The notes under the pieces: generated by a model
Told to the model about the DNA's origin: nothing
The model's database searches: none
What the model saw: the letters and a program-made list of their open reading frames with translations, nothing else
Shown here: piece by piece, positions 7,946-63,085 of the stretch
Position numbering within the stretch: position 1 is the stretch's first letter
Layout of the letters: each line of letters opens with the position of its first letter
Source: Azolla caroliniana
Taxonomy: Eukaryota; Plantae; Polypodiophyta
Direction: 5' to 3'
Length of the DNA stretch: 64,000 nt
Assembly (NCBI GenBank): GCA_043228905.1
Contig: JBHGNT010000008.1
Location: 6,510,001-6,574,000, forward strand
Program-made: the position numbers and the translations under genes

Positions 7946-8344
7946 GCGTACTCTCTCTAATCTTAATTTCCTCTAATCTATTACTCTAGCCATTGTCAGG
8001 AATAGTACTAAAGTAGAGATGAAATTAGTACTAAGAAGAGTAGTACTATTAGTACTAAGAGGACGGTACTGGGTAAGATTCCCGAGAGAGAGGAAGTGAG
8101 AAGAGGAGAGAGAGAGATAGGATGATGACAGTAGCTCTTATATTATATAAAAAGATAAGTACAAATCGGTTAAGAGGCTTAAGACTAGTGTTGAACCAAT
8201 TTGGTTCAAAACAATGCCTTGTGCCTCCTTTTATAGTGTTTTTAGGAATAATCCTGAAGCTTCTAGAATGTTCCAGAGAGATCTGGAATATACATCAATT
8301 TTCTATGATAAAGCATAAATGAAAATAATATCTTACAAGTTACA

Positions 8345-8410
8345 ATTCATAGTCTAATGGTAAGAGCTTGACCCATGTAGCATAAGGTCATGGGTTCGAG
8401 TCTTGGCATA
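8345..8410 (+). promoter_or_regulatory. Degenerate tRNA-like A-box/B-box module in chromovirus LTR (second copy ~13391-13456)
   Basis: TAGTCTAATGGTAAGAGC ... AGGTCATGGGTTCGAGTC; 44 nt from T8 to G53 equivalents. Confidence 0.6.
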
Positions 8411-8429
8411 TCATGACACTATCTCCCCC

Positions 8430-11400
8430 TTAAAGACGACGAGTGGAACGAGTCGGCGCTAATTGCGGACCGGGTTTGTCCGGATACTTTCGGTGGAAAT
8501 CCGCAAGAAGATCTTGTGCATTGGCAACATGCTCGACGGGTTCCCAAGTACGTTCGCTCGGACTATAACCGAGCCAATCGACCAAGTAATAAAGTTTGTT
8601 GCGAACAAGTTTGGAATCGAGGATGGTAGCAACTTCATACTCCGGGCCGGCGTCCAACTCCAGCGGGGGCAGCGGTGGTGTCACACGATCGGGAATGGTG
8701 TTTGCTTTATAAGGTTCAAGAAGAGAACAATGGAAAACCAGATGTATCTAAAGCTGTGGAGGGAGATCAAGACGGAAGGTGACATCATTAATCTTCCTCG
8801 TAATACGGAAAGGACCGAGTCGTCGATAATCCAACTTGTCGCACGGTCGAGTAGTCTTGATGTGACGACGTAAGAGCCATACTCGATCTCCGATGGCAAA
8901 AGAGGAGGGAATCCGATGACAATCCGCATAAGTCTTCTGTGTGTGTTGAGCATGACGAAGGTGAGTAGAGAGATCCATTTGGATCTTCCGTAGCCTCTCC
9001 AAATGATCCTCGGCACGAGGGTTGGTAGGTAGCTCCGAAGTGTCGATCACCTTCCAGCGAGGATGGAAACCGGTATAAGCGAAAAATGGGGAGACCTGAG
9101 TCGAGGAGTGAATAGCATTATTATACGCAAACTCCGCAAAGTGGAGAATCTCGGCCCAATCGTCCTGTTGATAACTCAGGAAACACCAGAGATATTGCTC
9201 CAGCGTTTAGTTTGTTCGTTCCGCCTGCCCGTTGGTCTGAGGATGCTAGCCGGAGGAGAGGTTGCAGGAGACCTTGAGCATCTTGAAGAGATGTTGCCAA
9301 AATTTGGAGACAAATTGCGGGCCTCGATCACTGATAATACTGTCTAGGAGGCCATGATGCCGAAATACCTCATGCATAACAAGAGCAGCGGTTTCCTCGC
9401 TAGTGATGGCTTTAGTACATGGCACAAAATGTGCCATCTTCGTATATCGATCGACGACGGTCAGGATAGCATCAAACCCCTTCGAGACCGGTAGATCTGT
9501 GATAAAATCAAGACAAATAGACTGCCATGGCTTACTTGGAATCGGTAAAGGTTCCAACAAGCCATATGGATGCTATCGTGGCATCTTTGCTCGGCAGCAA
9601 GCATCACAGGTCCGAACGTAGTCGTCGACCAAACGGCGCATGTGGGGCCACCAAAAAGATCGCTGCACTAGCTCCAACGTCTTAGTACTACCGAAATGTC
9701 CCGCCGTATGGGTGTCGTGACAATGTTGGACGATTTGAAGGCGACAGGAGCAATCAGGGACATATTCACGCTTTTTAAAGAATAACAAACCATCATGATA
9801 TTCGAATTGTCGGTAGTCAATACCTGGTTGTTGAGACTGAGAACAGGATGCCCGAGAAGTATCAATGTGCGCCAGGATGTCTTGAGCAAAACTATCCGTC
9901 TTCAAGGTTGCACGTATGTCATCGGTAATCCGTGAATCCATCGGGGTGTGAAAAATCCGCGTCGTGTGCAATCGTGTTGGTCCCAAGATTACTTGCTTTT
10001 GATTATCAAATGTTACGTCACCAGGACGAGGTGCAAGATATGAATGCCGTGATAGTGCATTTGCTTTTCCTTGCTGCTTCCCCGGTCAATATGTGATTTT
10101 GAAGTCGAAACGCGTGAGGAATTGCGCCCACCGAGCTTGCCGTCGATTTAGTACGCGAGCGTTCTGAAAATAAGCAAGATTTTTATGATCACTAAAGACA
10201 ATGACCTGATGTGGAGAGCCCTCTAAGAAATGCCGCCATTGTACAAATGAATCCACGATGGCTAATAACTCCTTGTCATGTATTTCGTAGTTGATTTCTA
10301 CGACATCGAATTTGCGCAAATGGAAAGCCACCGGATGCAACTCTTCTTTATCGCCTTGTTGAGAAAGGATGCTACTGAGGGCGAAATCTGATGCGTCGGC
10401 CTCCATGATGAATGGTTTGCTTGTATCCACATGAGCTAGAATCGATGCTGATGTAAAGGCTTTCTTAAGATGCCGAAAAGCCATATCTGCTTCTATGGAC
10501 CAAAGAAATACTTGGCCCTTCTTCGTAAGTTGTGTGAGAGGTAAAATGATCTTTGAGTAATCCTGTATAAACTTACGGTAGAAGTTAGCAAAACCTAGAA
10601 AACATTGTACATCTCGTATTGACCGTGGAATTTGCCACTCTAGTACAGTTTGGATTTTAGCTGGATCCATGGCGATGCCCTTTGAGGAGATGACGTAGCC
10701 TAGATAGAAATTCCACTTGCTTGCAGTCAAAGCTACATTTTTCTGGCTTGGCATAAAGACCATTCTCGCGAAGTCGCTTTAGTACTAATAGTACATGAGA
10801 ATCGTGCTCTTCTTGGGTCTTCGGATAAATCAATAGATCATCCAGATAAATGATCAAACAGATATCCAAGAGGTCTCTGAATATATCATTTGCCATGTGT
10901 TGGAAGACTGCGGGTGCATTGGTTAGGCCAAACGGCATAACAGTATACTCGAAATGCCCATACCGCGTGCGAAAGGCGGTCTTCCACTCATCTCCCAGTC
11001 GGATCCGCACGAGATTATACGCTCCTCGTAGGTCGATTTCGAATGGCGGATGAACCCGCTTGCCAAATTCTCCTCTATGTAGGCTCGAAGGACTTCTAAC
11101 TCGGTGGGTGACAAGTTGTAAATTGGTCCCCATGGTGGCTCGGTTCCTGGTTGTAAATCGATGGGACAGTCATAGGGGCAGTGATGAGGAAGTGTACCGG
11201 TTTTTACCTTGTCAAATACATCGGCATAAGGATGATATTTTGCTAGAAGTTGTACTGAGGAGTCCTTCTTAATAGTGCTGGAAGGATGTACTGATATTGC
11301 AAATAGGAACATTGCCTCCTTGGGTTCTTCTTCGCATAGTTGATGGAGTGAAATGGTCGAAACTTGGTGAGTTGATTCTTGGGGTGGTTGATATCGGACT

Positions 11401-11760
11401 TCTCTTGTTCTCCAATCTATGGCTGGATTATGTAATTCAAACCAAGGTAATCCTAGGACAATGGGATGCTCTGGACTACTAATTATATTAAATGATATTA
11501 CACACACAAAACTACCTAGGACAACTTGAATGGGTTCTGATTCTTCTACAATATTCAAGCAATGGGATGACCATCAATGACTACTACAGATGCGGGACAA
11601 GGAAGTTTTCTTAAGGATATCTGAGAAGCTTGGGCAAAATTTCGATCCATGAAACAAGAATTAGCTCCGGAATCTAAAAGTGCTAGGACGGGTACTGGGG
11701 GAGTACTTTTAGTACTAACAATGACTTGGGCTAGGAACACATTGCTAACTTGCTTGGAAG
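8430..11760 (-). pseudogene. pol: Chromovirus pol (PR, RT, RNase H, IN, chromodomain), multiple frameshifts
   Basis: LLDSGANSCF; [15 protein letters not shown]; EADASDFA; HDTHTAGH..CDAC; LDFITDLP; EYEVATILDS..YLVDWLGY..TWEP chromodomain (8430-8684). Confidence 0.92.
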
Positions 11761-11830
11761 GAATGGAACCAAACGGGCTGTACAGATCTAGGGCTGCTGT
11801 CCAACCAAACGGCTCCTATTTTGGTTGGAC

Positions 11831-12965
11831 TCAATCGTTTAACTCTTCATCTAATTGACTAAGGATTTCAAATTTATTTGAGATACTTGGGCTATTAGTA
11901 CTATGAATACTATCAAACACTCTATTAGTACTATTAATACTATCAGACACTCCTAAGGGAAGAATTGACTTGGGTTTAGTACAGGCTACAATTTGATTTA
12001 CCTGTCTTCTTGGCCTATGGGGACAATTGATTGCGATATGCCCTGGTCCACCGCAATAAAGACATAATCGATTTGCACGTCGTCGTTGCTTTTCTTCTTC
12101 CGATAACGGGCCGCGTCGACGCATGGTATCGATCTCCATTGGTGTCGAAGTATTTGCTTGAGGTATGTCTCGTGCAAATGGTCTAGCTGCGACTGCGGCG
12201 TAAGTGGGCTCCGGCCTAGCGCGTGGTATCTGTAATTGACGTTCCGAACGCCGTTCGAAGAGGCGGTTGTCACATCGGACAGCTCGACTGATTGCCTCCG
12301 TAAGAGACTTTGGTTCTTCGGGGAAGGTTAGAAGTAGATCTTTGACATCATTTCGCAGGCCATAGCTAAATTGCTCCATTAGTGCTTGATCATCCCAGGG
12401 TATGTCGGAAGCGAGTAGGCGGAAATCCGCCGCATAGGCAGAGGCTGGACAATCGCCTTGATGCAATTGCCGGATCTTGTTGATTGCCGTCCTAATGTTG
12501 TCGGTGTCTCCAAAGCAGGCTTTGAACTCACTAATAAAATCTTCAAAGTTATTAAGCAAGGGCGATTGTTTTTTTAAAAGCGGAGCGAACCATGCTAAGG
12601 CTGAGCCGCTAAGCAACATGCCTATTAAGCCGACTCGGGATGCATCAGTGGGGTATCGAGAAGGATGCATTTGGAGGACTAATCGTACCTAATTAAGGAA
12701 TCCCCTGAATTGCGATCGCGTTCCATCAAATTTCACAGGAAGTCCAATCTTCGGCTCTTTATGAAATCCTTGGGGACTTGATCCTTGTTGTTGCAATGCC
12801 ACTTCGAGTTGTTGCACCCGTAACGCTAACTCCCCATGTTGTTGCTGCGTTTGTTGCTTTTCTAGAGCGATTTGTTGCAGATCCCCTATCAGCCGTTGGT
12901 TTTCTTGTTCCAGGGCAACAAACTTTTCTTTTAGGCACTATTATTGGGCGCTAACAGTAGCCATA
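11831..12965 (-). pseudogene. gag: Chromovirus gag with zinc knuckle
   Basis: ORF 11831-12670: ALAWF, PMEID, CLYCGGPGHIAINC; degenerate 5' part extends to ATG near 12964. Confidence 0.9.
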
Positions 12966-13664
12966 GTAGAGGGAAAAGGGTAGGAGGATGAGGGAGAACG
13001 ACAAGTAGGCTAGAGGAAAGAGGAGAAAATTGGTTCAAACTGTCAAGAATAGTACTAAAGCAGAAATGGAATTAGTACTAAGAAGAGTAGTACTATTAGT
13101 ACTAAGAGGACGGTACTGCGTAAGATTCCCGAGAGAGAGGAAGTGAGAAGAGGAGAGAGAGAGATAGGATGATGACAGCAGCTCTTATATTATATAAAAG
13201 ATAAGTACAAATCGGCTAAGAGGCTTAAGACTAGTGTTGAACCAATTTGGTTCAAAACAATGCCTTGTGCCTCCTTTTATAGTGTTTTTAGGAATAATCT
13301 TGAAGCTTCTAGAATGTTCCAGAGAGAGCTGGAATATACATCAATTTTCTATGATAAAGCATAAATGAAAATAATATCCTACAAGTTACAATTCATAGTC
13401 TAATGGTAAGAGCTCGACCCATGTAGCATAAGGTCATGGGTTTGAGTCTTGGCATATCATGATAGCCATCTCCATTAGAAATTTTTTTGTAATCCCAATC
13501 TTGGGATTAATTGTAATCTTTCTTTCTACTTGTTAATGAAATTTGTTAATCTTTCTCATTTTGGTTAATTCTTAGTACATAAATACACGAATTTGATATC
13601 CTTTAGTCAAAGGCCCCGAGGTCTTGCCTCAACGTTCACGTATCCTTGTCGTATTTTCGCGACA

Positions 13665-19900: not shown

Positions 19901-21303
19901 TGAATAGTTATTTCTGGCAAAGAAATAGGATAAGGTCAGATAAACAGTAATAATATCATGTCGTGATGTAAACATATCATGGGCAAACATTAATCGATAT
20001 CATGATCTCACGTCAATACCCCTCTAGACGTATGAGATGAGGTTCAAGATCTCACAAAGGTGTTTTAAAAATCAAGTGGGTGACAAATGAATGTCTTTCC
20101 CTGATCTCTATCGATTTTTTCATGGCGGCTCTCCGAGGCTCAACCATGTATGTTCGCGTCATGAATAGTTATACACGAAAAAAATGTTAACAATAAACTA
20201 TGTTTCTATGCCCACGTATGTGGTTTTGGCTCTTTCAATCCTATTACGAGGACCTCGAAGTGCACTTAGACCTAAAGTCTAAACATGTGTTATAGTCATA
20301 TGTATCAACAATGTTGTATGGTCTTGGTCATATTTGAACACTTGAGCTAACTGTGTTGGTACGTTATCTAACTTCAAGTCTCATAATTATGATGGCATAC
20401 GCCAAAGTGCAACCTAATGGTCAAGCCAAATGAGCCCTCTTTTCGTAGTAGGCCCATCACATGGTCATGTCATTACGAACGCCTTTCGTAAGACTCATCT
20501 CATGGTGGCATCATATCCATATAATGAGGGAGGGATGTTGGATATGTGTGTCATAGGAGCGACCTCACATGAACTGGGTCAAGCCCTACATTCTCAATAT
20601 CATTGTGGCTATCATCGTTTCGTTACTTAACGAAATCGAAGTGACCAACGGGGATGTCAACAAAAAAAAATGTTGAAAAAAGATGGTGACTACGCTGTTG
20701 TGAAGATTTTCGGCAATAGTGTGAAAATCCCATAAAACGTACGAAATCGAGTATGAATCACATAATACAATAATTGTGAAGATAACATTTTAAATAAATT
20801 TAATATCTAAGTACAAAATGATGGAGGTTTCGAATGCACTTTATTACACGAGAAACGGACAACTAAATGTCAAGATATGAGGGTATAAAGTTTGTGAAAG
20901 GAAAAGAGAAAATTGTGAGATATCCCACATAGGCACGACAAATACGGCTCTCATCATATATAAGGTAGAGCAAAAGCTATTATCTTTGTGTCTATGTGTG
21001 GAGCATAGAGAGTTCAAGGTAACTTGAACTAAGAGTGGAGGTGGGCTAGCTACTCGTAAAGGGTTTTGGCCAACCAAAACCGGACCGACGATGGAGCCAG
21101 TGATCCGGCGAGGCACCGGTAACCGACGGCATCTGGCGACGGTGAGGTGACAGCATCCGGCTGCAATCCAGCAAAGGCGAGGTGACGGCATCCAGTGTCG
21201 GCGAGGCACGAATAAAGAGTCTTAACAACCAAAGATCGGTCCAATTCCTAACGGTGCGAGCCAATCATGAAAGGAATCGAGATAGTCTCGGAGGTGAATC
21301 CTC

Positions 21304-24300
21304 GGATTTTTAGATCGGACTATTGAAGCATGGGGCACAAATAGTCCGAGCAATCACAAGACCCCACAAGAAAGAAGAGTGCGTGGATTGCAAGGAGAAG
21401 CAACATGTGTCACACCTAGTGGCGCATGTAAACTAGTACTACCCGACAAGAAGCACAAGTGCCGGATACAAGAATTCGAGAAGATGCTGAAAGAAGAGAA
21501 CATAATAGAAGAAGGAGAGTTCGTGACTCATATTATGGAAGAAGCCTCATTTAACGACACCATCGGCGAAATCGAGGACGTCGTGAACTTGAGCTATCTT
21601 CACAACCAACGCGTGATTTCGGTTAACTCCGTCAACATGTACGCTATCATCGATGAATACCGTCGTGGCATCTCGATGAAGGAAGCTGACATCAACACGA
21701 AATATAAAATGGTGGATAAGAGGATCAAGCCAGTTGTGGTTCAGCTACCGGAAGATAGCTGGCAAAAGATGAAGGAAGTCGCTAACGATCCAAGCTTAAG
21801 AGATCCGAAGAAGATAGGTCATGTCTTGACCAAAGAGACGAAGGGGAAGCTACGAGTTGGAAAGGAGGATTTCCTTCTCCCTGAAGAGGAGCGAATGTTT
21901 CACGATATGCTTGAGAGACATGGGAAGGCTTTCGCATTCTTCCCACGAGAAATCGGATGCGCTGACCCAAAGGTTATAGAGCCGATGGTGATCTTCACGC
22001 TGCCTCATGTGCCTTGGAATTTGAAACCGATACCGGTTCCGAGAGCACACCTTCCGAAGCTGATTGAGCTCTTAAAGGAGAAGGTGAGTATGGTAATTCT
22101 AGAACCGTCGAATGCTCCTTATTCCAATAGGTGGTTCACGGTGCCGAAGAAGAATGGATCATTGCGATTCATCCAAGATCTTCAACCCGTCACCAAGGTG
22201 ACAATTCGAAATGCTGGAATCGGTCCGAGCGTGAAAGAAGTTGCCGAAGCATTTGCGGGCCAGTCCATCTACTCCATTGACGATCGACAGTCGGGACATT
22301 ACAACCATGAGGACTCCAATCGGGCTTGTGTGGATGTGTACCTCACCCCAAGGCGCAACGAACTCGATGGCTCATATGGTGAATGCCATGAATAAAGTCT
22401 TAAAGGATTGCATCCCGGACATCACGATGCCATTCTTGGATGATATTCCGATAAAAGGATGTTCGAATGAGGAGAAAGATGAATTGAAAGATAAGGAAGG
22501 TTGTAGAAAGTTCATTGCGGATCATATGAAAGATTGCGAGAAGGTGCTTCAAAGGCACGAAGATGCGAATTTGACATTTTCGGGAGAAAAATCTGCTTTC
22601 GGGCAACCAGAGATCTTGCTGGTAGGTCACTTGTGTGGAGCATACGGCCGGAAGCCCTCGCCATCCAAAGTGAATGCAATCCAAGACATGAAAGAAGAAT
22701 GCGAAAACCAAACGGAGGTTCGAAGGTTCCTTGGAGCGTGCACATTTTATCATATATGGATTCCTCACTACGCTCATGTCGCCGAACCGTTATATGGACT
22801 ACTAATGAAAAGAATGAAGTTCAAATGGTGAGACGAGCACACAAATGCGATGCGAAGATTAAAGAAACTGCTTCTTGAAGCTCCGGCACTAAGGAAGGCC
22901 GACTATGCCGAAGGGAAACCAATTTACATGACCGTAGATACGAGCCCAACCGGAATCGGGTGGGTCATCAATCAAGAAGGTGAAGATAATGCGCGATATG
23001 CCATCCGGTTTGGAGGAAAGGTTCTCAGTGAATGGCAACAAAGATATGCCCAAGTCAAGCGGGAACTTTGAGGTATTGTGTCGGCAGTGAAAACGGACAA
23101 AGATTACCTGATCGGGTCAAAAGTGATAATAGAGACAGATTGTCTCCCAATTCTCGGAATGGTCTGGGGATGTGCGACCCCAGATCTTGCTATGCTAAGG
23201 TGGATCGCCTACATCAAATCTTTAAACCCAGAGATCCGTCACATTGCAGGGAAGAAGAACGCCATGGCTGACATGTTGTCAAGGGCAAGATTTTCAAATG
23301 GAAGTAACATGGTTTCGGAAGATGAAGATGTCGCCCTCGACTTCTTCAAGATGGCTCGATTGTCGGCGGAAGACCAGGACACGCAAACCCTCCACGCCTT
23401 CAACGAGAGCGAGTACGAAGGAGAGTGGTTACTCATAGGTAGATTCCTAAGAACATTGACGACAGATGCTTCGTTGACAAAGGAGGAGGCCCTACGAATC
23501 TGAAAGAAAACTTACCGATACCTCTTGAAGGGAGGATTCCTTTGGCGACATCCAAAAAGAAGGACAGGAATACCACGTCGAGTGGTGGTAAAGAAAGAAG
23601 AGCAAAAGTCGCTGATGACGAAATTCCATGAGAGTGCTTGGGCAAGTCATAGAGTAACATGAGCGACGTTCAAAAAGTTGAAGGAGAAGTACTGGTGGTC
23701 AAGCATGTACAAAGATGTACTCCATTTCATGTCCACATGCGAAACTTGCCAAATATATTCAAATATAGGTCATCGTGATGAGTTACAGCCGACATACCCA
23801 CACACCATACACTTCAAATGGATGGTGGATCTGGTCTCGATGCCAATGGGAGTGGGACAAATGAAGTACTTAGCGCTGGCAAGGGAAGACTTGCCAAATC
23901 AAGCGGGAAGGACAAGCCTTGACAAATAAGACAACTTCAGCCGTTTGCAAATTTCTGCTTGAAGAGGTTGTTTGCCGATATGGATGTGTAGTGAAGATAG
24001 TGGCTGACCGAGGGGAGTTGGACACGCACGAAGCGACGGAGCTTTTCGGAAGACTAGGCGTGAAGCTCTCCCTCACAACTGCCTACAATCCGGAAGCGAA
24101 TGGGAAGATCGAGCGAGGGCATGGACCTATCATTAAAGCCATTGTACGGGCATGCAACGGTCGAGTCGGGAATTGGCCACGACTATTACCCTATGCCTTG
24201 TGGGCCGATAGAATGACACATAGCTCGATGACAGGGTATATGCCGACGGAGCTTATGTATGGACAAAAGCCGATTATGCCCATCGAAAGGACGATCGCCT

Positions 24301-24764
24301 CATGGGTAGCGATACCATGGGAGAACGAGATGAGCCGAGAAGAGTTATTAGCGGCGCGGATAAGGCAACTTGAAAGAAGACCTGAAGATTTAGAAAAAGC
24401 GCAAAAGATGATGGAGGCAGCCCGAGTAAAGAACAAAGTTCAGTTCGACAACACGCATCGACTTCGTCCCAAGAAGATTGAAGAAGGGGATTGGGTTTTG
24501 GTTTATGACAACACCCTTGACAATCAACACAGTACAACAAGGAAGTTCGCAAGAAGATGGTTCGGGCCGTATGTGGTGACAAGTGCCAAGGATAATGCCA
24601 CATACCACCTTGGGGAACTAGACGGATCAAGGTTGGTCGTACCCATTGTCGGAAACAGAGTAAAGATTTTCGAGAAAAGACAAGACAAGGATCCTGACCT
24701 CAATCACCTCGACGATGAACATAATAGGGCAGATGTAAATGAAGACATGGAGGAATCTAATTGA
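21304..24764 (+). pseudogene. pol: Gypsy C pol (RT, RNase H, IN)
   Basis: PHVPWNLKPIPVP, PFLDDIPIKG, VDTSPTGIG, YNPEANGKIERGH, RWFGPYVV. Confidence 0.92.
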
Positions 24765-25478
24765 TCACCGTAGCCGAAATCTCACTTTCTCTCTTCTTGG
24801 CACGTACCGGAGGACGTGCGGTTTGGTGGGGGTGGATGTCGTGAAGATTTTCGGTAATAGTGTGAAAATCCCATAAAACGTACGAAATCGAGTATGAATC
24901 ACATAATACAATAATTGTGAAGATAACATTTTAAATAAATTTAATATGTAAGTACAAAATGATGGAGATTTCGAATGCACTTTATTACACGAGAAATGAA
25001 CTAAATGTCAAGATATGAGGGTATAAAGTTTGTGAAAGGAAAAAAGAAAATTGTGAGATATCCCACATAGGCACGACAAATACGGCTCTCATCATATATA
25101 AGGTAGAGCAAAAACTATTATCTTTGTGTCTATGTGTGGAGCATAGAGAGTTCAAGGTAACTTGAACTTAAGAGTGGAGGTGGGCTAGTTACTCGTAAAG
25201 GGTTTTGGCCAACCAAAACTGGACCGACGATGGAGCCGGTGATCCGGCGGCATCCGGTGCCAGTGAGACACCGACATCCGACGGCGAGGTGGCGGCATCC
25301 GGTGCCGGTGAGACGACGGCATCCGGTGAGGCACCGGTAACCGACGACATCCGACGCCGGTGAGGTGACGGCATCCAGCGGCGGCAACCGGCGACGGCAT
25401 CCGACGGCATCCGGCGAACCGACGTCCGGTGACTAGATAAATAAATATATAAATATATATACATATATACATATACAA

Positions 25479-25552
25479 GGAGGGCAAGTAAGGATTCGAA
25501 CCTTGCACCTCCGAGTTAAGAGTCAATTGGCTTACCATTAAGCCATGCTATT
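25479..25552 (-). promoter_or_regulatory. Degenerate tRNA-like module in LTR of C
   Basis: TGGCTTAATGGTAAGCCA-ATTGACTCTTAACTCGGAGGTGCAAGGTTCGAATCC. Confidence 0.65.
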
Positions 25553-26016
25553 TAGTTGAATTTATATTCCTATCATTATAATTTTACATGTAAATTCTCA
25601 TACATGAGAGCTAAAATGAGTGACATGGTTATCATGCACCACATATAATACATAAGCGCCAAATGGCAAACATGCATTTTATGCATGTCTTGTACCCTCA
25701 CATGCATCATATGCATGAGGGCATCTATAAAAGAAGGAAGGGGGAGGAGAAAAAACACAGTTTTTTTTTATGAAATTAAGAAGAAGAAATTCGTTATCGA
25801 ATTGATCGTGTAACTTGTTTCTTAAATCTAAAGATAAAAGTTCAATCAATCTCTCTCAATCGTTTAATCTCAACTTCTCTCTTTCCCAATCTATCTTAAG
25901 TACTTTCTCGCTAAAGCTTGCGCCAAAGCTTGTACCAACTTTGAATCCTTCCGGTCCAGAACCCCGACGGTTCCGCCTCACAATCCGCACATAGTGACGG
26001 ATCTTCACGACAACGC

Positions 26017-53536: not shown

Positions 53537-54212
53537 TGTCGCGAAAATACGACGAGGATACGTGAACATTGAGGCAAGACCCCCGGGCCTTTGTCTAGAG
53601 GATATCAAATTCGTGTATTTATATACTAAGAATTAACCGAAATGAGAAAGATTAACAAATTTCATTAATAAAAGGGAAAGAAAGATTACAATCAATCCCA
53701 AGATTGGGATTACAAAAGTTTATCTTATGGAGATGATTAGAATAATAGATTAGAGGAAATAAAAGATTATGATTCTTGAGTGATATGGCTTTGACAAGGA
53801 ATTTTGGATTTTGAGAGATTGCTTCCGTATAGAAATTATGGTTTACTTGAGAGATAGCTTCCGTAGGGAAGATTAGGGTTATTGGCTTCGATAAGATAAG
53901 AGAGCCCCCCAACAAAAGAAAAAAAAAATTTAGATAATATGGAGAGTGAGTCCTAGTGTAGGAAAAAAAAATGGAATAAATATGGAGTTCTCTCTTGATC
54001 ATAGCCTTCCACTTTTTGTTGCATGACCTCTACTTTTAGTTGCCTAGCTTTTTCTTTTGGTTGCATGTGACTATCCACATGACCTTTACTTTTTCCATGC
54101 ACTCCTTCTTTAGTTGCTTGCGTCCACATGGCCTTTACTTTAGTTCTCTTCACTTTACTTTAGTTTGTTGCATGATCCAATCTTTCGTCCGTCCGCGTCC
54201 AACCTCGTCCAG

Positions 54213-54642
54213 TAGCCGGTCCCATTTTGCTTGCCGGTCGGTTCCGGTTCCAATTTTGCTTGCCGGCCGGTTCCGGTTACGGTTTTGCTTGCCGGTTCCA
54301 GTTCCGGTTTTGCTTGCCGGCCGGTTCCGGTTTGCTTGCCAGTTCCGGTTCCGGTTTTGCTTGCCGGCCGGTTCCAGTTTGTTTGCCAGTTCCGGTTCCG
54401 GTTTTGCTTGCCTGCCGGTTCCGGTTTTGCTTACCGGCCGGTTTCCGGTTTTGTTTGCCGGCCGGTTCCGGTTTTGCTTACCGGCCGGTTTCCGGTTTGC
54501 ATACCCGTTCCGGTTCCGGTTTTGCTTGCCGGCCTGTTCCGGTTTTGCTTACCGGCCGGTTTCCGGTTTGCATACCCGTTCCGGTTCCGGTTTTGCTTGC
54601 CGGTCGGTTCCGGTTCCGGTTTGCTTGCCGGCCGGTTTCCGG
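54213..54642. repeat. CCGG-rich degenerate minisatellite within E LTR (continues 62626-62705)
   Basis: Variants of CCGGTTCCGGTTTTGCTTG repeated many times. Confidence 0.92.
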
Positions 54643-55826
54643 TGTCGTGAAGATCTGTCACTACGCGCGGATCATGAGGCGGAACCATTGGGGTTCAGGA
54701 CCGGAAGGATTCAAAGTCAGTACAAGCTTTGGCGAGAAAGTACTTAAGATAGATTGGGAAAGAGAGAAGTTGAGATTAAACGATTGAGAGAGATTGATTG
54801 AACTTTTATCTTTGGATTTAAGAAACAAGTTACACCATCAATTTGATAACGAATTTCTTCTTCTTAATTTCATAATAATAATAATAACGTGTTTTTTCTC
54901 CTCCCCCTTCCTTCTTTTATAGATGCTCTCATGCATATGATGCATGTGAGGGTACAAGAGATGCATAAATTGCATGTTTGCCATTTGGCGCGTATGTATT
55001 ACATGTGGTGCATGATAACCATGTCACTCATTTTAGCTCTCATGTATGAGAATTTATATGTAAAAGTACAATGATAGAAATATAATTTCAACTAAATAGC
55101 ATGGCTTAATGGTAAGTCAATTGATTCCTAACTTGGAGGTGCAAGGTTTGAATCCTTCCTTGCCCTCCTTGTATATGTATATATGTATAATATTTATTTA
55201 TTTATTTATCTAGTTGCCGTCGCCGGTTGCCGTCGGTTACCGGTGCCTCGTCGGATGCCCAATACCGTCGCCGAAAACCTGTGCCTCGCCGTCGCCGGAT
55301 TGCCGTCGGATGCCGGTCTCTCACTGGCGCCGGATGTCGTTGGATCACCGTCACCGGATCGCCGGTCCGGTTTTGGTTGGCCAAAACCCTTTACGAGTAG
55401 CTAGCCCACCTCCACTCTTAGTTCAAGTTACCTTGAACTCTCTATGCTCCACACATAGACACAAAGATAATATCTTTTGCTCCACCTTATATATGATGAG
55501 AGTCGTATTTGTCGTGCCTATGTGGGATATCTCACAATTTTCTCTTTTCCTTTCACAATCTTTATGCCCTCATATCTTGACATTTAGTTGTCCGTTTCTC
55601 GTGTAATAAAGTGCATTCGAAACCTCCATCATTTTGTACTTAGATATTAAATTTATTTAAAATGTTATCTTCACAATTATTGTATTATGTGATTTATACT
55701 CGATTTTGTACGTTTTATGGGATTTTCACACTATTGCCGAAAATCTTCACGACATCCACCCCCACCAAACCGCACGTCCTCCGGTACGTGCCAAGAAGAG
55801 AGAAAGTGAGATTTCGGCTACGATGA

Positions 55827-58800
55827 TCAATTAGATTCCTCCATGTCTTCATTTACATACGCCCCATTATGTTCATCGTCAAGGTAGTCGAGGTCAAGAT
55901 CCTTGTCTTGTCTTTTCTTGGAAATCTTTACTCTTTTTCCCGCAATGGGTACGGCCAACCTTGATCCGTCTAGTTCTGCAAGGTGGTATGTGGCATTATT
56001 GTTGGCACTTGTCACCACATACGGCCCGAACCATCTTCTTGCGAACTTCCTTGTTGTACTGTGTTGATTGTGAAGGGTGCTGTCGTAAACCAAAACCCAA
56101 TCCCCTTCTTCAATCTTCTTGGGACGAAGTCGATGCGTGTTGTCGAACCGAACTTTGTTCTTTACTCGGGCTACCTTCATCATCTTTCGAGCTTTTTCTA
56201 AATCTTCTGGTCTTCTTTCAAGTTGCCTTATCCGCGCCGCTAATAACTCTTCTCGGCTCATCTCGTTCTCCCACGGTATCGCTACCCATGAGGCGATCGT
56301 CCTTTCGATGGGCATAATCGGCTTTTGTCCATACATAAGCTCCGTCCGCATATACCCTGTCACCGAGCTATGTGTCGTTCTATCGGCCCACAAGGCAAAG
56401 GGTAATAGTCGTGGCCAATTCCCGACTCGACCGTTGCATGCCTGTACGATGGCATTAACGATAGGTCCATGCCCTCGCTCGATCTTCCCATTTGCTTCCG
56501 GATTGTAGGCAGTCGTGAGGGACAGCTTCACGCCTAGTTTTTCGAAGAGCTCCGTCTCTTCGTGCGCGTCCAACTCCCCTCGGTCGGCCACTATCTTCCC
56601 TACACATCCATATCGGCAAACAACATCTTCAAGTAAAAATTTACAAACAGCTAAAGTCGTCTTATTTGTCAAGGCTTGTCCTTCCACTTGATTTGTCAAG
56701 TCTTCCCTTGCCAGCGCTAAGTACTTCATTTGTCCCACTCCCATTGGCATCGAGACCAGATCCACCATCCATTTGAAGTGTATGGTGAGTGGGTATGTCG
56801 GCTTTAACTCCTCACGATGACGTATATTTGAATATATTTGGCAATTTCGCATGTGGACACGAAATGGAGTACATCTTTGAACATGCTTGGCCACCAGTAC
56901 TTCTCCTTCAACTTTTCGAACGTCGCCCATGTTCCTCTATGACCTGCCCAAGTACTCTCGTGGAATTCGGTCATCAGCATCTCATGCTCTTCTTTCTTTA
57001 CCACCACTCGACGTGGTATTCCTGTCCTCCCTTCAAGAAGTATCGGTAAGCTTTCTTTCGGATTCGTAGGGCCTCCTCCTTTGTCAACGAAGCATCTGTC
57101 GTCAATGTTCTTAGGAATCTATCGATGAGTAACCACTCTCCTTCGTACTCGTTCTCGTTGAAGGCGTGGAGGGTTTGTGTGTCCTGGTATTCCGCCGACA
57201 ATCGAGCCATCTTGAAGAAGTCGAGGGCGACATCTTCATCTTCCGAAACCATGTTACTTCCATTTGAAAATCTTGCCCTCGACAGCATGTCAGCCATGGC
57301 GTTCTTCTTCCCTGCAATGTGACGGATCTCTGGGTTTAAAGACTTGATGTAGGCGATCCACCTCAGCATAGCAAGATCTGGGGTCGCACATCCCGAGATC
57401 ATTCCGAGAATTGGGAGACAATCTGTCTCTATTATCACTTTTGACCCGATCAGGTAATCTTTGTCCGTCTTCACTGCTGACACAATACCCCAAAGTTCCC
57501 GCTTGACTTGGGCATATCTTTGTTGTCGTTTGCTGAGAACCTTTGCTCCGAACCGGACGGCATATCGTGCATTATCTTCACCTTCTTGATTGATGACCCA
57601 CCCGATTCCGGTTGGGCTCGTATCTACGGTCACGTAAATTGGTTTCCCTTCGGCATAGTCGGCCTTCCTTAGTGCCGGAGCTTCAAGAAGCAGTTTCTTT
57701 AATCTCCGCATCGCCTTTGTGTGCTCGTCTCGCCATTCAAACTTTATTCTTTTCTTTAGTAGTCCATATAACGGTTCGGCGACATGAGTGTAGTGAGGAA
57801 TCCATATATGATAAAACGCGCACGCTCCAAGGAACCTTCGAACCTCCGTTTGGTTTTCGCATTCTTCTTTCATGTCTTGGATTGCGTTCACTTTGGATGG
57901 CGAGGGCTTCCGGCTGTATGGTCCACACAAGTGACCTACCACCAAGATCTTTGGTTGCCCGAATGCGGATTTTTCTCCCGAAAATGTCAAATTCACATCT
58001 TCGAGCCTTTGAAGCACCTTCTCGCAATCTTTCATATGATCCATGACGAACTTTCTACAACCTTCCTTATCTTTCAATTGATCTTTCTCCTCATCCGAAC
58101 ATCCTTTTATCGGAATATCATCCAAGAATGGCATCGTGATGTCCGGAATGCAATCCTTCAAGACTTTATTCATGGCATTCACCATATGAGCCACCGAGTT
58201 CGTTGCGCCTTGGGGTAAGGTACACATCCGCACAAGCCCGACCGGAGTCCTCATGGTTGTAATGTCCCGACTGTCGATCGCCAATTGGAATTGGTCATAT
58301 CCGGAGTAGAGATCGCAAATGGAGTAAATGGACCGGCCCGCAAACGCTTCGGCAAATTCGTCCACGCTCAGACCGATTCCGGCATTTCGAATTGTCACCT
58401 TGTTGACGGGTTGAAGATCTTGGATGAATCGCAATGATCCATTCTTCTTCGGCACCGTGAACCACCTATTGGAATAAGGAGCATTCGACGGTTCTAGAAT
58501 TCCCATACTCACCTTCTACTTTAAGAGCTCGATCAGCTTCGGAAGGTGTGCTCTCGGAACCGGTATCGGTTTCAAATTCCAAGGCACATGAGGCACCGTG
58601 AAGATCACCATCGGCTCTATAACCTTTGGGTCGGCGCATCCGATTTCTCGTGGGAAGAATGCGAAAGCCTTCCCATGTCTCTCAAGCATATTGCGAAACA
58701 TTCGCTCCTCTTCAGGGAGAAGGAAATCCTCCTTTCCAACTCGTAGCTTCCCCTTCGTCTCTTTGATGAAGATATGACCTATCTTCTTCGGATCTCTTAA

Positions 58801-59292
58801 GCTTGGATCGTTAGCGACTTCCTTCATCTTTTGCCAGCTATCTTCCAGTAGCGGAACCGCAACTGGCTTGATCTTCTTATCCACCGTTTTATATTTCGTG
58901 TTGATGTTAGCTTCCTTCATCGAGATGCCACGACGGTATTCATCGATGATAGCGTACATGTTGACGGAGTTAACCGAAATCACGCGTTGATTGTGAAGAT
59001 AGCTCAAGTCCACAATGTCCTCGATTTCGCCGATGGTGTCGTTAAATGAGGCTTCTTCCATAATATGAACTAGAAACTCTCCTTCTTCTATTATGTTTTC
59101 TTCTTTCAGCATCTTCTCGAATTCTTGTATCCGGCGCTTGTGCTTCTTGTCGGGTAGTACTAGTTTACATGCGCCACTAGGTGTGACACATGTTGCTTCT
59201 CCTCGCAATCCACGCACTCTTCTTTCTTGTGGGGTCTTGTGATTGCTTGGACTATTTGTGCCCCATGCTTCAATAGTCCGCTCTAAAAATCC
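55827..59292 (-). pseudogene. pol: Gypsy D pol (RT, RH, IN), few lesions
   Basis: ORFs 58516-59313, 56998-58512 (DLYSGYDQ, LPQG, FLDD) and 55827-56930. Confidence 0.93.
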
Positions 59293-61466
59293 GAGGATTC
59301 GCCTCCGAGACAATCTCGATTCCTTTCATGATTGGCTCGCACCGTTAGGAATTGGACCGATCTTTGGTTGTCAAGACTCTTTATTCGTGCGAAGGCTGCT
59401 CCATTATCGAACACTTTGGTCTCCATCCGAGATGATGTGATATAAGGTTGTCCTAGGATAACAGGATGCGACACTGATTCTTATACGAAGAAGTGTTGAT
59501 CCATCTCCACATCCCCAATCGTGACTTTGACATTGGGACAAGCTCCGTACAAGTCCTCCGTAGACTTTGTTGCCGCGCGAATCTTCCATCCGTGGTTTGT
59601 ATTGATTGGCCCATCTTCCCTTTTTGTAGAAGTCGGTTGACATGAGGTTGATCTCCGAGCCGTGGTCGATCAAGGCTAAGACGGTTTCTTTCTTCTCCCC
59701 GATCTTCACCGGCTTCTTCGTTGTCGCTCGTGCCCAATGAGGTCGACTGTAGTGGTTGTTCACCATATCTTCATCGATTTCGTCTCTTGCCATTGTTATG
59801 GCATTCGTTTTTGCTTTTTGCGTCTTCTCTTCTTCCTCGTCCGACTGTTGTCTCTTTCTCTTTACAAGGTCCACGATCGTGTCATGGAACTCCTTCGTAA
59901 TGCCAAGCAATTCCCTCAAGGACAAAGTTACGTGGCTATCAAGAACTCGTTCTTCGAGAATCTTCTTTAGGTCCGTCGTCTGCTCTATGTTTGACCTTAG
60001 CTTGTAGGTAGGTATAGTCCTTGTCCTCCGAGCGGGGTCTTCGACACCAACCTTCACGGGCCGAACCGTTTCTTCAACTCGTATGCTCAGCTCCCCTTTT
60101 CGGCTTGATTCTCGTTCCTCCGTTTGTAAAGGTCGACTCGTCTCCGCATCGTCCTTCTTTTTCGCGTTCCTTGTTTCATGTCTTTTTGATGGCCCTTGTT
60201 CTTCTATTCTCTTTCTCTTTTCTTCGACGAACACCTCGTGGTTGTCGCACATCACCTCTGCGAGTATGGTGTTGTCATCCACCGGATCCGACCACCCGGT
60301 TATGCTTTGCACGCTTCGGTCCGCAAGCTCTACCTCGTTCGATGTGATTCGAGAACGAAAGTCCAAAACTTTTCTCCCGCTCTAGCAGCTTCAGTCTTGT
60401 CTTTCCCGACTCTTATTCCGGCCGACGCAGCATAGTGCATCGCATCCACATGAGTCGCATCGGCATCCTCCATAGATCTCTTCATTCCTCCTCTTCCGAA
60501 ATTCACCCGTAGGGGTCTTCTAGTCTCGCTTGAGCAGATCATGTTGTCCTCCATGTATACGATATTTTGTCGAATCGCCTCTCGAAGGCTCGCACAATCC
60601 CTTCTCATGTGGTACATGCTATCGCACCACACACATCTAAAGGGTTCTTTTCCTTTAGGGCCCCGACGATTCATGTTGGCTAGCGTGACCTTCTCGAACT
60701 TCTTCCCTAGCTCTTCAATGATGTCGTCATCAATCTTCTTTTCTTCCTCGTTACTTTGTCTTGGTGGCTCAGCTACTTTCGGCGGTCTTGCTTTCTCCGT
60801 GGTAGTCGGTCCCGTCAAGTCGGTGTCATCAACCCATTGGCGACGCTTGTCGAGCCTATTGCATGCCCGCTTCACCGCGATCCAGTCCGCTACGAGCCCA
60901 TTTGCTTGGGTATCATCTTCGAGAAGAGTCCCCAACTCCCGTCTATCCTTTATGTCCATGGCCTTCAAGAAGTACAAAGTCTTGTCCTCTTCAAGCAACA
61001 CTTGGTCCGTATTGGGGAGACGACTAAACATCTGGTCGAATTCGTCGTACACCCTCGAGACGCTCATCTTCTTATTCTTCTTCTCTATCCACTTCATCAG
61101 GGCATGTCGAGTCATCCTCGTTGAGTCTTCAGTCACGAACTCCGCTAGTATCGTTTTCTCGAACTCGGACCATGTTGTCTTACCTTCTTGAAGCTTGATG
61201 ACGCGTCTTTGGATGTTGTTGGCGACAACTCTCTTGAAGCTTGCGATTTGACGTGCCTCGGACACGTCCCTCTGATTCATCTCCCTTCTATATGCATCAA
61301 GGAACTTCGTAACGTTCCTTCCATCGAATTGGCCCTCGAGCTCTACGACACGATCGACAGCCTTCTCCACGCTCGCATCGTTGTCCCGAGATCTCATCAT
61401 TTGCTCGACGATTAGCATCATCCTTTCGAGCTCTCCTGCTTGGTTGCTTGAGGACGCCATCTCCAA
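59283..61466 (-). pseudogene. gag: Gypsy D gag plus protease
   Basis: ORF 60330-61466 with CVWCDSMYHMRRDC; LIDHGSEINL (59404-60366); VILGQPY..ESSDF* (59283-59474). Confidence 0.88.
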
Positions 61467-61501
61467 GTATTAATCTCGACTTGATCCTTCCTACCACCTC
61501 A

Positions 61502-61520
61502 TTTCACGTCGGGTTCACCA
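61502..61520 (-). promoter_or_regulatory. PBS complementary to tRNA-Trp 3' end
   Basis: + strand TTCACGTCGGGTTCACCA matches the recalled plant cytosolic tRNA-Trp 3' end; 8-nt spacer to LTR. Confidence 0.8.
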
Positions 61521-61980
61521 CTTAATTATGTCGTGAAGATCCGTCACTACGCGCGGATCGTGAGGCGGAACCGCCGGGGTTCTGGACCCGAAGGATTCAA
61601 AGTCGGTACAAGCTTTGGCGAGAAAGTACTTAAGATAGATTGGGAAAGAGAGAAGTTGAGATTAAACGATTGAGAGAGATTGATTGAACTTTTATCTTTG
61701 GATTTAAGAAACAAGTTACACCATCAATTTGATAACGAATTTCTTCTTCTTAATTTCATAATAATAATAAAAACGTGTTTTTTCTCCTCCCCCTTCCTTC
61801 TTTTATAGATGCTCTCATGCATATGATGCATGTGAGGGTACAAGAGATGCATAAATTGCATGTTTGCCATTTGGCGCTTATGTATTACATGTGGTGCATG
61901 ATAACCATGTCACTCATTTTAGCTCTCATTTATGAAAATTTACATGTAAAAGTACAATGATAGAAATATAATTTCAACTA

Positions 61981-62054
61981 AATAGCATGGCTTAATGGTA
62001 AGCCAATTGATTCCTAACTTGGAGGTGCAAGGTTCGAATCCTTCCTTGCCCTCC
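61981..62054 (+). promoter_or_regulatory. Degenerate tRNA-like module in D LTR (second copy ~55095-55168 with TTCGA>TTTGA)
   Basis: A box TGGCTTAATGG at 61988, B box GGTTCGAATCC at 62031. Confidence 0.65.
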
Positions 62055-63085
62055 TTGTATATGTATATATGTATAATATTTATATATTTATTTATCTAGT
62101 CGCCGGACGCCGGTTGCCATCGGTTACCGGTGCCTCGCCGGATACCGGTGCCGCCGCCTCGCCGTCGCCGGATTGCCGTCGGATGCCGGTCTCTCACTGG
62201 CGCCGGATGCCGTCGGATCACCGGCTCCATCACCGGTCCGGTTTTGGTTGGCCAAAACCCTTTACGAGTAGCTAGCCCACCTCCACTCTTAGTTCAAGTT
62301 ACCTTGAACTCTCTATGCTCCACACATAGACACAAAGATAATATCTTTTGCTCCACCTTATATATGATGAGAGACGTATTTGTCGTGCCTGTGTGGGATA
62401 TCTCACAATTTTCTCTTTTCCTTTCACAAACTTTATGCCCTCATATCTTGACATTTAGTTGTTCGTTTCTCGTGTAATAAAGTGCATTCGAAACCTCCAT
62501 CATTTTGTACTTAGATATTAAATTTATTTAAAATGTTATCTTCACAATTATTGTATTATGTGATTTATACTCGATTTTGTACGTTTTATGGGATTTTCAC
62601 ACTATTGCCGAAAATCTTCACGACACCGTATTGCATACCGGCCGATTTCCGGATTTACTTACCGGACCCGTTTTCCAGATTTGCTTACCTCCCGGTTTCC
62701 GGTTTTAGGGAATTTGGCCACCATCATCCATCAAGACAAAGTGGCCAAAGTGCTCTTAGCACAAATGAAAAATGAGGGAGCTCAAGGTGTTTATATAGCC
62801 AGGGCCTTAACTTTCCTATCTATGTGGGATAGTTCTAATTTCCCTATCTAATCAAACTTTATTTTCTCATAACTTGATATGTATTTCTCCATTTTGTATA
62901 TAGTAAAATACATTTTGAAGCTCTTGAGTATATCCATCTTTCTATAGTAAGCTACTAATCTAATCTATAATAATTATTTCATTATTTTTTTACATAGTGT
63001 GTGAAGATTCACACGACATTCGCCCCCACCAAACCTGCACATCCACCGGTATGTGCCAATTTTGGTGAGGATTCATTTTTGTTTA

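What the first reader, a model, noticed from the sequence alone, without database searches (positions are those of the whole stretch)
61981..62054. Antisense tRNA-like Pol III module inside U3 of the C/D gypsy LTRs
Seen: all three complete LTRs (25479-25552, 55095-55168, 61981-62054) hold an A box forming hairpin TGGCTT/AAGCCA, an anticodon-like loop (CTCTTAA in C, TTCCTAA in D) and B box GGTTCGAATCC at tRNA spacing (44 nt), followed by an AT-rich tail. It points away from the element's TATAAAAG about 170-180 bp distant. No good acceptor stem. Known: Cassandra TRIMs carry 5S-derived Pol III promoters in LTRs; TFIIIC-bound B boxes act as chromatin barriers in yeasts and animals. Inference: a captured tRNA/SINE head used as a portable insulator or antisense promoter.
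Basis: partly seen in the sequence, partly recalled or inferred. Interest (0 to 1): 0.75.

Follow-up and report, generated by a model that had tools for sequence, protein, structure and literature searches.

The report
tRNA-type promoters inside plant retrotransposon LTRs
Two unrelated kinds of protein-coding jumping genes from a seedless plant each carry a broken-down tRNA-gene promoter in their end repeats, facing away from their own start signal, where it likely helps keep that start signal open, although most related families lack it and no function has been tested.

Summary
The module is real: an A box and a B box at tRNA spacing (43 nt), antisense, 181 nt upstream of the TATA box in U3 of a Phygy-like gypsy family. 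It is not a tRNA (ARAGORN and Rfam negative). All 5 near-perfect A+B hits in 64 kb lie in these LTRs (shuffles: mean 0.5). A metagenome scan made without the module found it in 3 of 13 related LTR families, including a third head duplicated in tandem. Between heads the boxes are 82-88% identical and the rest 33-56%. Against function: 10 of 13 families lack it, recent copies mutate it like the flanks, and the B-box CpG is hit in 2 of 5 window copies. Closest known: Helenus and Cassandra TRIMs, which are non-coding and use the promoter for their own RNA. This scan noted similar LTR-borne promoters in fungi before. Verdict: new variant; origin well supported, function inferred.

The parts
54643..62625 (-). 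Element D, 7,983 bp, Phygy-like Ty3/gypsy with RT, RNase H and integrase; 4-bp target duplication CCGG/CCGT
61529..62625 (-). 5' LTR of D (1,097 bp)
54643..55754 (-). 3' LTR of D; 1065 of 1096 aligned bases identical to the 5' LTR
61503..61520 (-). Primer-binding site of D after an 8-nt spacer (identity as tRNA-Trp is recalled; Phygy uses Trp in 81% of elements)
61975..62053 (+). tRNA-derived Pol III-type module in D 5' LTR U3, antisense to D: CAA 61975-61977, A box 61988-61998, B box 62031-62040
61800..61807 (-). TATAAAAG of D 5' LTR, 181 nt from the A box (putative Pol II promoter, inferred)
55089..55167 (+). Module copy in D 3' LTR; A box 55102, B box 55145 with C>T at the CpG
20696..26012 (+). 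Element C, same family; 5' LTR deleted before the module; target duplication ACGC/ACGC
25480..25558 (-). Module copy in C 3' LTR (24837-26012); A box from 25545, B box from 25502, intact
7994..13464 (-). Element B, unrelated chromovirus (chromodomain, self-priming site, 5-bp duplication GCCAT); RT 27% identical to D over 78 aa
8336..8402 (+). Different tRNA-like module in B 3' LTR U3, antisense to B: A box 8350, B box 8393, spacing 43, 115 nt from TATAAAAG (8228-8235)
13382..13448 (+). Module copy in B 5' LTR; A box 13396, B box 13439 with C>T at the CpG
61655..61744 (-). Weak, decayed sense-oriented tRNA-like unit downstream of TATA in D (low confidence)
   Evidence: (E 0.089)

Best explanation
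The LTRs of two unrelated protein-coding gypsy lineages carry a tRNA-derived A-box/B-box promoter in U3, antisense and 115-241 nt upstream of their TATA box, which likely binds TFIIIC/TFIIIB and would keep the neighbouring Pol II promoter open in fresh, unmethylated copies. Shown: the boxes, spacing, orientation, position, loss of the tRNA fold, and at least three different heads in that slot. Inferred: capture from tRNA genes or SINE heads; copying to both LTRs because the site is in U3; TFIIIB loading on the side that faces the TATA box; a nucleosome-positioning or barrier effect between flank and promoter. The device would be optional (most sister families lack it) and short-lived per copy (old copies lose the B box by CpG deamination).
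For: All 5 near-perfect A+B hits in the window are in U3 of two lineages, antisense, spacing 43; their RTs are 27% identical. A scan on the primer site alone (121 loci) gave 8 more copies in 6 loci, all antisense and upstream of TATA, none in internal regions. Three heads (D, L151, B) share 14-15 of 17 box positions but 12-20 of 36 other positions. L151/L144 share the TATA-proximal block with D (z about 20) but hold a different head in the same slot, twice in tandem. In L075 the D-type module is an 80% island in an LTR that otherwise aligns only at its first 56 nt, and the A-to-TATA distance is 184 vs 181 while that interval does not align (z 1.5). The only common A-box variant displayed in the contig pile-up is A>G at the purine position, which fits the consensus. 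L075, L142, L144 and L151 have a CpG-free B box. The RNA product is not conserved: poor pairing, first T4 run 59-327 nt downstream, which points to a DNA-level role. Pol III complexes phase nucleosomes and act as barriers in yeast (PMC4228148, passages).
Against: 10 of 13 related LTR families with a complete LTR lack the module. Among the three C/D copies it is no better conserved than its flank: 2/53 and 3/53 changes against 4/180 and 10/180. The B-box C is mutated in 2 of 5 window copies and in L118, in LTRs with a CG/CHG-biased mutation load, so integrated copies are not protected. The non-window heads were picked by a box pattern, so box conservation between heads is partly built in. Three heads all antisense has a chance of 1 in 8; a sense unit with perfect boxes exists in L151 and decayed ones in L140 and D. 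No empty site or target duplication was found. No binding, chromatin or RNA data. The barrier evidence read is from yeast, not plants.
Confidence: 0.45

Rival explanations
1. Neutral passengers: tRNA pseudogene or SINE heads landed in U3, the most tolerant part of an LTR, and were amplified with successful families. Antisense copies survive only because they do no harm.
For: Absent from 10 of 13 families; no excess conservation among recent copies; B-box CpG lost in 2 of 5 window copies; Kojima 2024 notes that 'not a few' Repbase LTRs hold part of a tRNA.
Against: Different heads occupy the same slot and keep both boxes and 43-44 nt spacing while acceptor stem, anticodon and pairing are lost; L075 keeps the module while its flanks do not align; tandem duplication with both copies keeping boxes; no free copies seen.
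Confidence: 0.3
2. Self-restraint: the module makes a Pol III RNA antisense to U3 of the genomic RNA, or represses the nearby Pol II promoter as in tRNA-gene-mediated silencing, and so limits the element's own activity.
For: Antisense orientation, CAA at -9 to -15 from the A box in 8 of 10 copies examined, AT-rich upstream region (plant tRNA gene elements in PMC7544208 and PMC13578239, passages); tgm silencing is described in yeast.
Against: Predicted RNA length and fold are not conserved; the D family is extremely abundant in the runs laid, which does not suggest restraint; CAA is weak evidence in AT-rich DNA.
Confidence: 0.17
3. Landing pad: the module attracts elements that integrate upstream of Pol III genes, as earlier scan notes proposed for gut-fungus LTRs.
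For: Only earlier unchecked notes on other genomes.
Against: None of the 5 window copies is interrupted just upstream of the A box, and the 45 nt upstream of the 7 metagenome copies printed run on as LTR sequence.
Confidence: 0.05

Closest known systems
Helenus TRIMs (TRIMp3; Kojima 2024, PMC10886601; parts 1-4 of 6 and passages read)
   Same: tRNA-derived sequence in both LTRs, boxes A and B kept, no functional tRNA, PBS and PPT present, proposed origin by SINE insertion into an LTR.
   Different: Helenus is non-coding, 311-1263 bp, and is proposed to be transcribed from the Pol III promoter; its only plant member is in Selaginella. Here the carriers are 5-8 kb coding elements with their own TATA box and the module points away from the element's transcript. 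That paper expects autonomous elements to use Pol II and analysed only TRIMs.
Cassandra TRIMs (as described in PMC10886601; abstract of 10.1101/2023.07.14.548913 seen)
   Same: Pol III internal promoter carried inside plant LTRs and kept by selection.
   Different: 5S-derived (type 1 promoter), drives the element's own RNA, non-autonomous.
Phygy clade of non-chromovirus Ty3/gypsy (Neumann 2019, PMC6317226; passages and a supplement row)
   Same: 4-bp NCGN duplication, Trp-type primer site, 7.6-10 kb size, no chromodomain.
   Different: No Pol III module is mentioned in the passages or row seen; RT placement against REXdb was not run.
tDNA and TFIIIC-site barriers and tgm silencing in yeast (PMC4228148, passages)
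   Same: A/B boxes next to a Pol II promoter, with possible nucleosome phasing, barrier or repressive effects.
   Different: Those are fixed host loci in yeast; here the site is mobile, in a plant, and untested.

Membership tests
Helenus / TRIMp3 | tRNA-derived sequence with A and B boxes in the LTRs | tested here: met
Helenus / TRIMp3 | Short, non-coding (at most about 1.3 kb) | tested here: not met
   D is 7,983 bp with RT, RNase H, integrase; B has gag, RT, integrase, chromodomain
Helenus / TRIMp3 | Pol III promoter placed to transcribe the element itself | tested here: not met
   antisense in all 13 intact-type copies; one sense unit in L151
Helenus / TRIMp3 | PBS, PPT and 4-5 bp target duplication | tested here: met
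Functional tRNA gene | Cloverleaf with acceptor stem; detected by ARAGORN or Rfam | tested here: not met
tRNA-derived SINE | Free dispersed copies outside LTRs | tested here: inconclusive
   none in the window or 121 loci; share running on into unlike sequence 0, 0 and 0.01 in three DNA-like runs, one 41-nt match with unlike flanks in X18; no whole genome held
tRNA-derived SINE | Own target duplication and LINE-type tail | tested here: inconclusive
   AT-rich run after the D head, none after the B head; no duplication or empty site seen by eye
Phygy (elements C, D) | 4-bp NCGN duplication, Trp PBS, 7.6-10 kb, no chromodomain | tested here: met
   PBS isotype is recalled
Phygy (elements C, D) | RT/RH/INT placement in the REXdb clade | not tested
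   named homologs are from Riccia and Adiantum; no tree built
Tcn1-type chromovirus (element B) | Chromodomain and self-priming site | tested here: met
   PF00385 E 4.6e-14; 12-nt complement of the PBS 33 nt after TATA
TFIIIC-bound barrier or insulator | TFIIIC occupancy and blocking of silencing | not testable with these tools
   no chromatin data available

The most novel reading that the evidence does not exclude
Autonomous LTR retrotransposons of seedless plants have repeatedly and independently recruited tRNA-gene promoters as portable chromatin devices: a Phygy-like lineage and a self-priming chromovirus each place a divergent TFIIIC site about one nucleosome upstream of their TATA box, swap it between families, and use it to open or shield their Pol II promoter wherever they land.
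Probability: 0.3. Interest if true: 0.8.

Novelty: new variant of a known kind. Interest (0 to 1): 0.56.

Why it matters
Pol III promoters inside LTRs are described for short non-coding elements that use them to make their own RNA. A divergent Pol III promoter beside the Pol II promoter of coding elements cannot serve that purpose, so if it is selected it must act through chromatin or antisense RNA. That would give plant retrotransposons a host-factor-based anti-silencing or self-control device, scatter many TFIIIC sites through the genome, and offer a simple test of whether tRNA-type boxes act as barriers in plants: sister families with and without the module exist for comparison.

Tried and rejected
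No whole genome is held, so copy number, free copies and branch-wise selection could not be measured. Viral contigs: integrase query found nothing; A-box pattern gave 42 loci and PBS pattern 31 loci, all unrelated chance matches. Prokaryote genomes: 7 chance matches. No RNA holder listed; the two guessed-RNA runs laid are contigs and say nothing on expression. Parent tRNA not identified: identity to a fetched host tRNA-Arg gene was only 52-67% and the anticodon position varies among copies. A conserved RNA structure was rejected: consensus energy -1.66 kcal/mol, 1 of 14 pairs with a two-sided change. Literature: 9 answered searches plus one search found Helenus/Cassandra but no listing describing this layout in coding plant elements; two searches returned 0 papers. 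Most hits were seen as listings only, Repbase and subscription journals were not searchable, and Kojima's supplements were not opened. Earlier-finding look-ups by sequence and relatives were blank; genome look-ups returned other topics.

Full report
Observation. The module is present at the stated places. Each copy has an A box matching the type-2 consensus (consensus recalled; Kojima gives TRGCY, YGG and GGTTC) and a B box 43 nt further on. It lies on the strand opposite to the element, 181 nt from TATAAAAG. The copy in the D 3' LTR has C>T in the B-box CpG and in the D-hairpin, so the quoted motifs hold for 2 of 3 copies. It is not a tRNA: ARAGORN found 0 genes in the window, Rfam gave no tRNA match on 61800-62200, and the fold is not a cloverleaf. 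A scan of the whole window for A+B pairs with at most one mismatch gave 5 hits against a shuffle mean of 0.475; 3 were perfect against 0 in 40 shuffles.

The carrier. D (54643-62625, minus strand, 7,983 bp) encodes RT, RNase H and integrase and has a PPT, a primer site after an 8-nt spacer, and flanks CCGG/CCGT; C has ACGC/ACGC and a deleted 5' LTR. Neumann 2019 lists for Phygy a 4-bp NCGN duplication, tRNA-Trp primer in 81% and 7.7-10 kb (passages and one supplement row). That the primer site is Trp is my recall. Named RT relatives among the best 120 of 219 hits are from Riccia and Adiantum, so the host is likely a seedless plant.

A second lineage in the same window. Two of the 5 hits lie in the LTRs of element B (7994-13464). 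B has a chromodomain, a 12-nt complement of its primer site 33 nt after its TATA box, a 5-bp duplication, and an RT 27% identical to D over 78 residues; these fit the self-priming Tcn1 clade of mosses and club-mosses. Its module is again antisense, in U3, spacing 43, 115 nt from TATA. It shares 15 of 17 box positions with D but 12 of 36 other positions. The 5' LTR copy has the same B-box C>T.

Relatives. Most come from one series of assemblies, some are bacterial chance hits, many are too short to reach U3, and repeat contigs may be collapsed or chimeric. Six loci hold 8 module copies, all antisense and upstream of a TATA box, none in internal regions. Of 27 LTRs that my rule called complete, 4 carry it; by family, 3 of 13 (D's family included); the rule missed a few LTRs, in which the model search also found nothing. 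Sister families with gag 53-57% identical to D lack it (L091, L127, L116, L135). L105, L118 and L142 are D relatives. In L075 a BLAST with the whole D LTR finds only the first 56 nt and the module (80%), and the A-to-TATA distance is 184 although that interval does not align (z 1.5). L144 and L151 share D's TATA-proximal block (73-78%) but carry a different head just upstream, twice in tandem; it matches D at 13-14 of 17 box and 14 of 36 other positions. Whether these heads are separate captures or one old head eroded to its boxes cannot be told; either reading needs the boxes to have been favoured, but these heads were found by a box pattern, so part of that contrast is built in.

Family-wide view. 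Contigs of four runs were laid on 61700-62050. In the three DNA-like runs summed depth over the module is of the same order as over the flank (ratios about 0.9, 0.7 and 1.1 by my arithmetic; the tool warns this is no copy number), and the share running on into unlike sequence is 0, 0 and 0.01. So the D head is a standard part of a very abundant LTR, with no sign of a large free SINE family. Loose ends at the first base of the A box mark subfamilies that diverge upstream. The common A-box variant shown is A>G at the purine position. B-box rows were not displayed.

Against function. Among the three C/D copies the module changes as fast as the adjacent interval (2/53 and 3/53 vs 4/180 and 10/180). 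LTR pairs differ mostly at CG and CHG sites (D: 13/114, 7/47, against 4/286 and 7/645), and the B-box CpG is hit in 2 of 5 window copies and in L118. Integrated copies are therefore likely methylated at the box. Three heads all antisense has a chance of 1 in 8, and sense units occur downstream of TATA: perfect boxes in L151, E 1.8e-5 in L140, E 0.089 in D.

Mechanism. The RNA is not conserved in fold or in predicted length (first T4 run 59-327 nt downstream, none within 700 nt for B), so a DNA-level role is more likely than an RNA product. TFIIIC recruits TFIIIB upstream of the A box (PMC13578239, passages), which here is the side facing the TATA box. In yeast such complexes phase nucleosomes, act as barriers and can also repress nearby Pol II promoters (PMC4228148, passages). 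In Arabidopsis methylated tRNA gene clusters are silent despite intact boxes (PMC7544208, passages). I infer an optional opener or barrier acting in fresh copies (0.45), a neutral passenger (0.30), self-restraint by antisense RNA or repression (0.17), or a landing pad (0.05). None of these steps is shown.

Comparison and novelty. The closest described systems are Helenus and Cassandra. This works like them in carrying a Pol III promoter in both LTRs, but fails membership: the carriers are long and coding and the promoter faces away from the element's transcript. Kojima remarks that not a few Repbase LTRs hold part of a tRNA but analysed only TRIMs, so similar cases may be annotated. My searches listed no paper on this layout. 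Earlier scan notes describe tRNA-like promoters in fungal LTRs and gypsy elements (unchecked). I rate it a new variant of a known kind, interest 0.56.

Noticed in passing
   Followed up: yes
L151 1654-1710, L140 1515-1600, window 61655-61744 (-), L120 and L108 R/U5: A sense-oriented, mostly decayed tRNA-like unit lies about 70 nt downstream of TATA in several Phygy-like families, so the TATA box may be flanked by two outward-facing heads; L120 has a near-perfect B box there.
   Followed up: partly
L121 1148-1224 (+); L101: A host tRNA-Arg(CCG) gene lies about 200 nt upstream of a Phygy-like LTR, facing away from it; L101 has two tRNA-Met-like copies upstream of another element.
   Followed up: no
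window 20696-21205: The 5' LTR of C runs straight into internal sequence: one deletion removed the module, TATA, primer site and gag start.
   Followed up: partly
window 54209-54643 and 62626-62710: Element D is inserted in a CCGG-rich tandem array (23-47 nt period), in line with an NCGN target preference.
   Followed up: no
L075 56-835: LTR has a D-like 5' end and module but the U5 of another family (L148, L190), suggesting U3 exchange between families or an assembly chimera.
   Followed up: partly
L142 501-553: Weak match (73% over 48 nt, E 0.27) to the B-type head outside the D-like part of the LTR.
   Followed up: no
window 61810-61930: The interval between module and TATA is rich in ATGCAT/CATG palindromes, and this block is shared with the L144/L151 family.
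   Followed up: no
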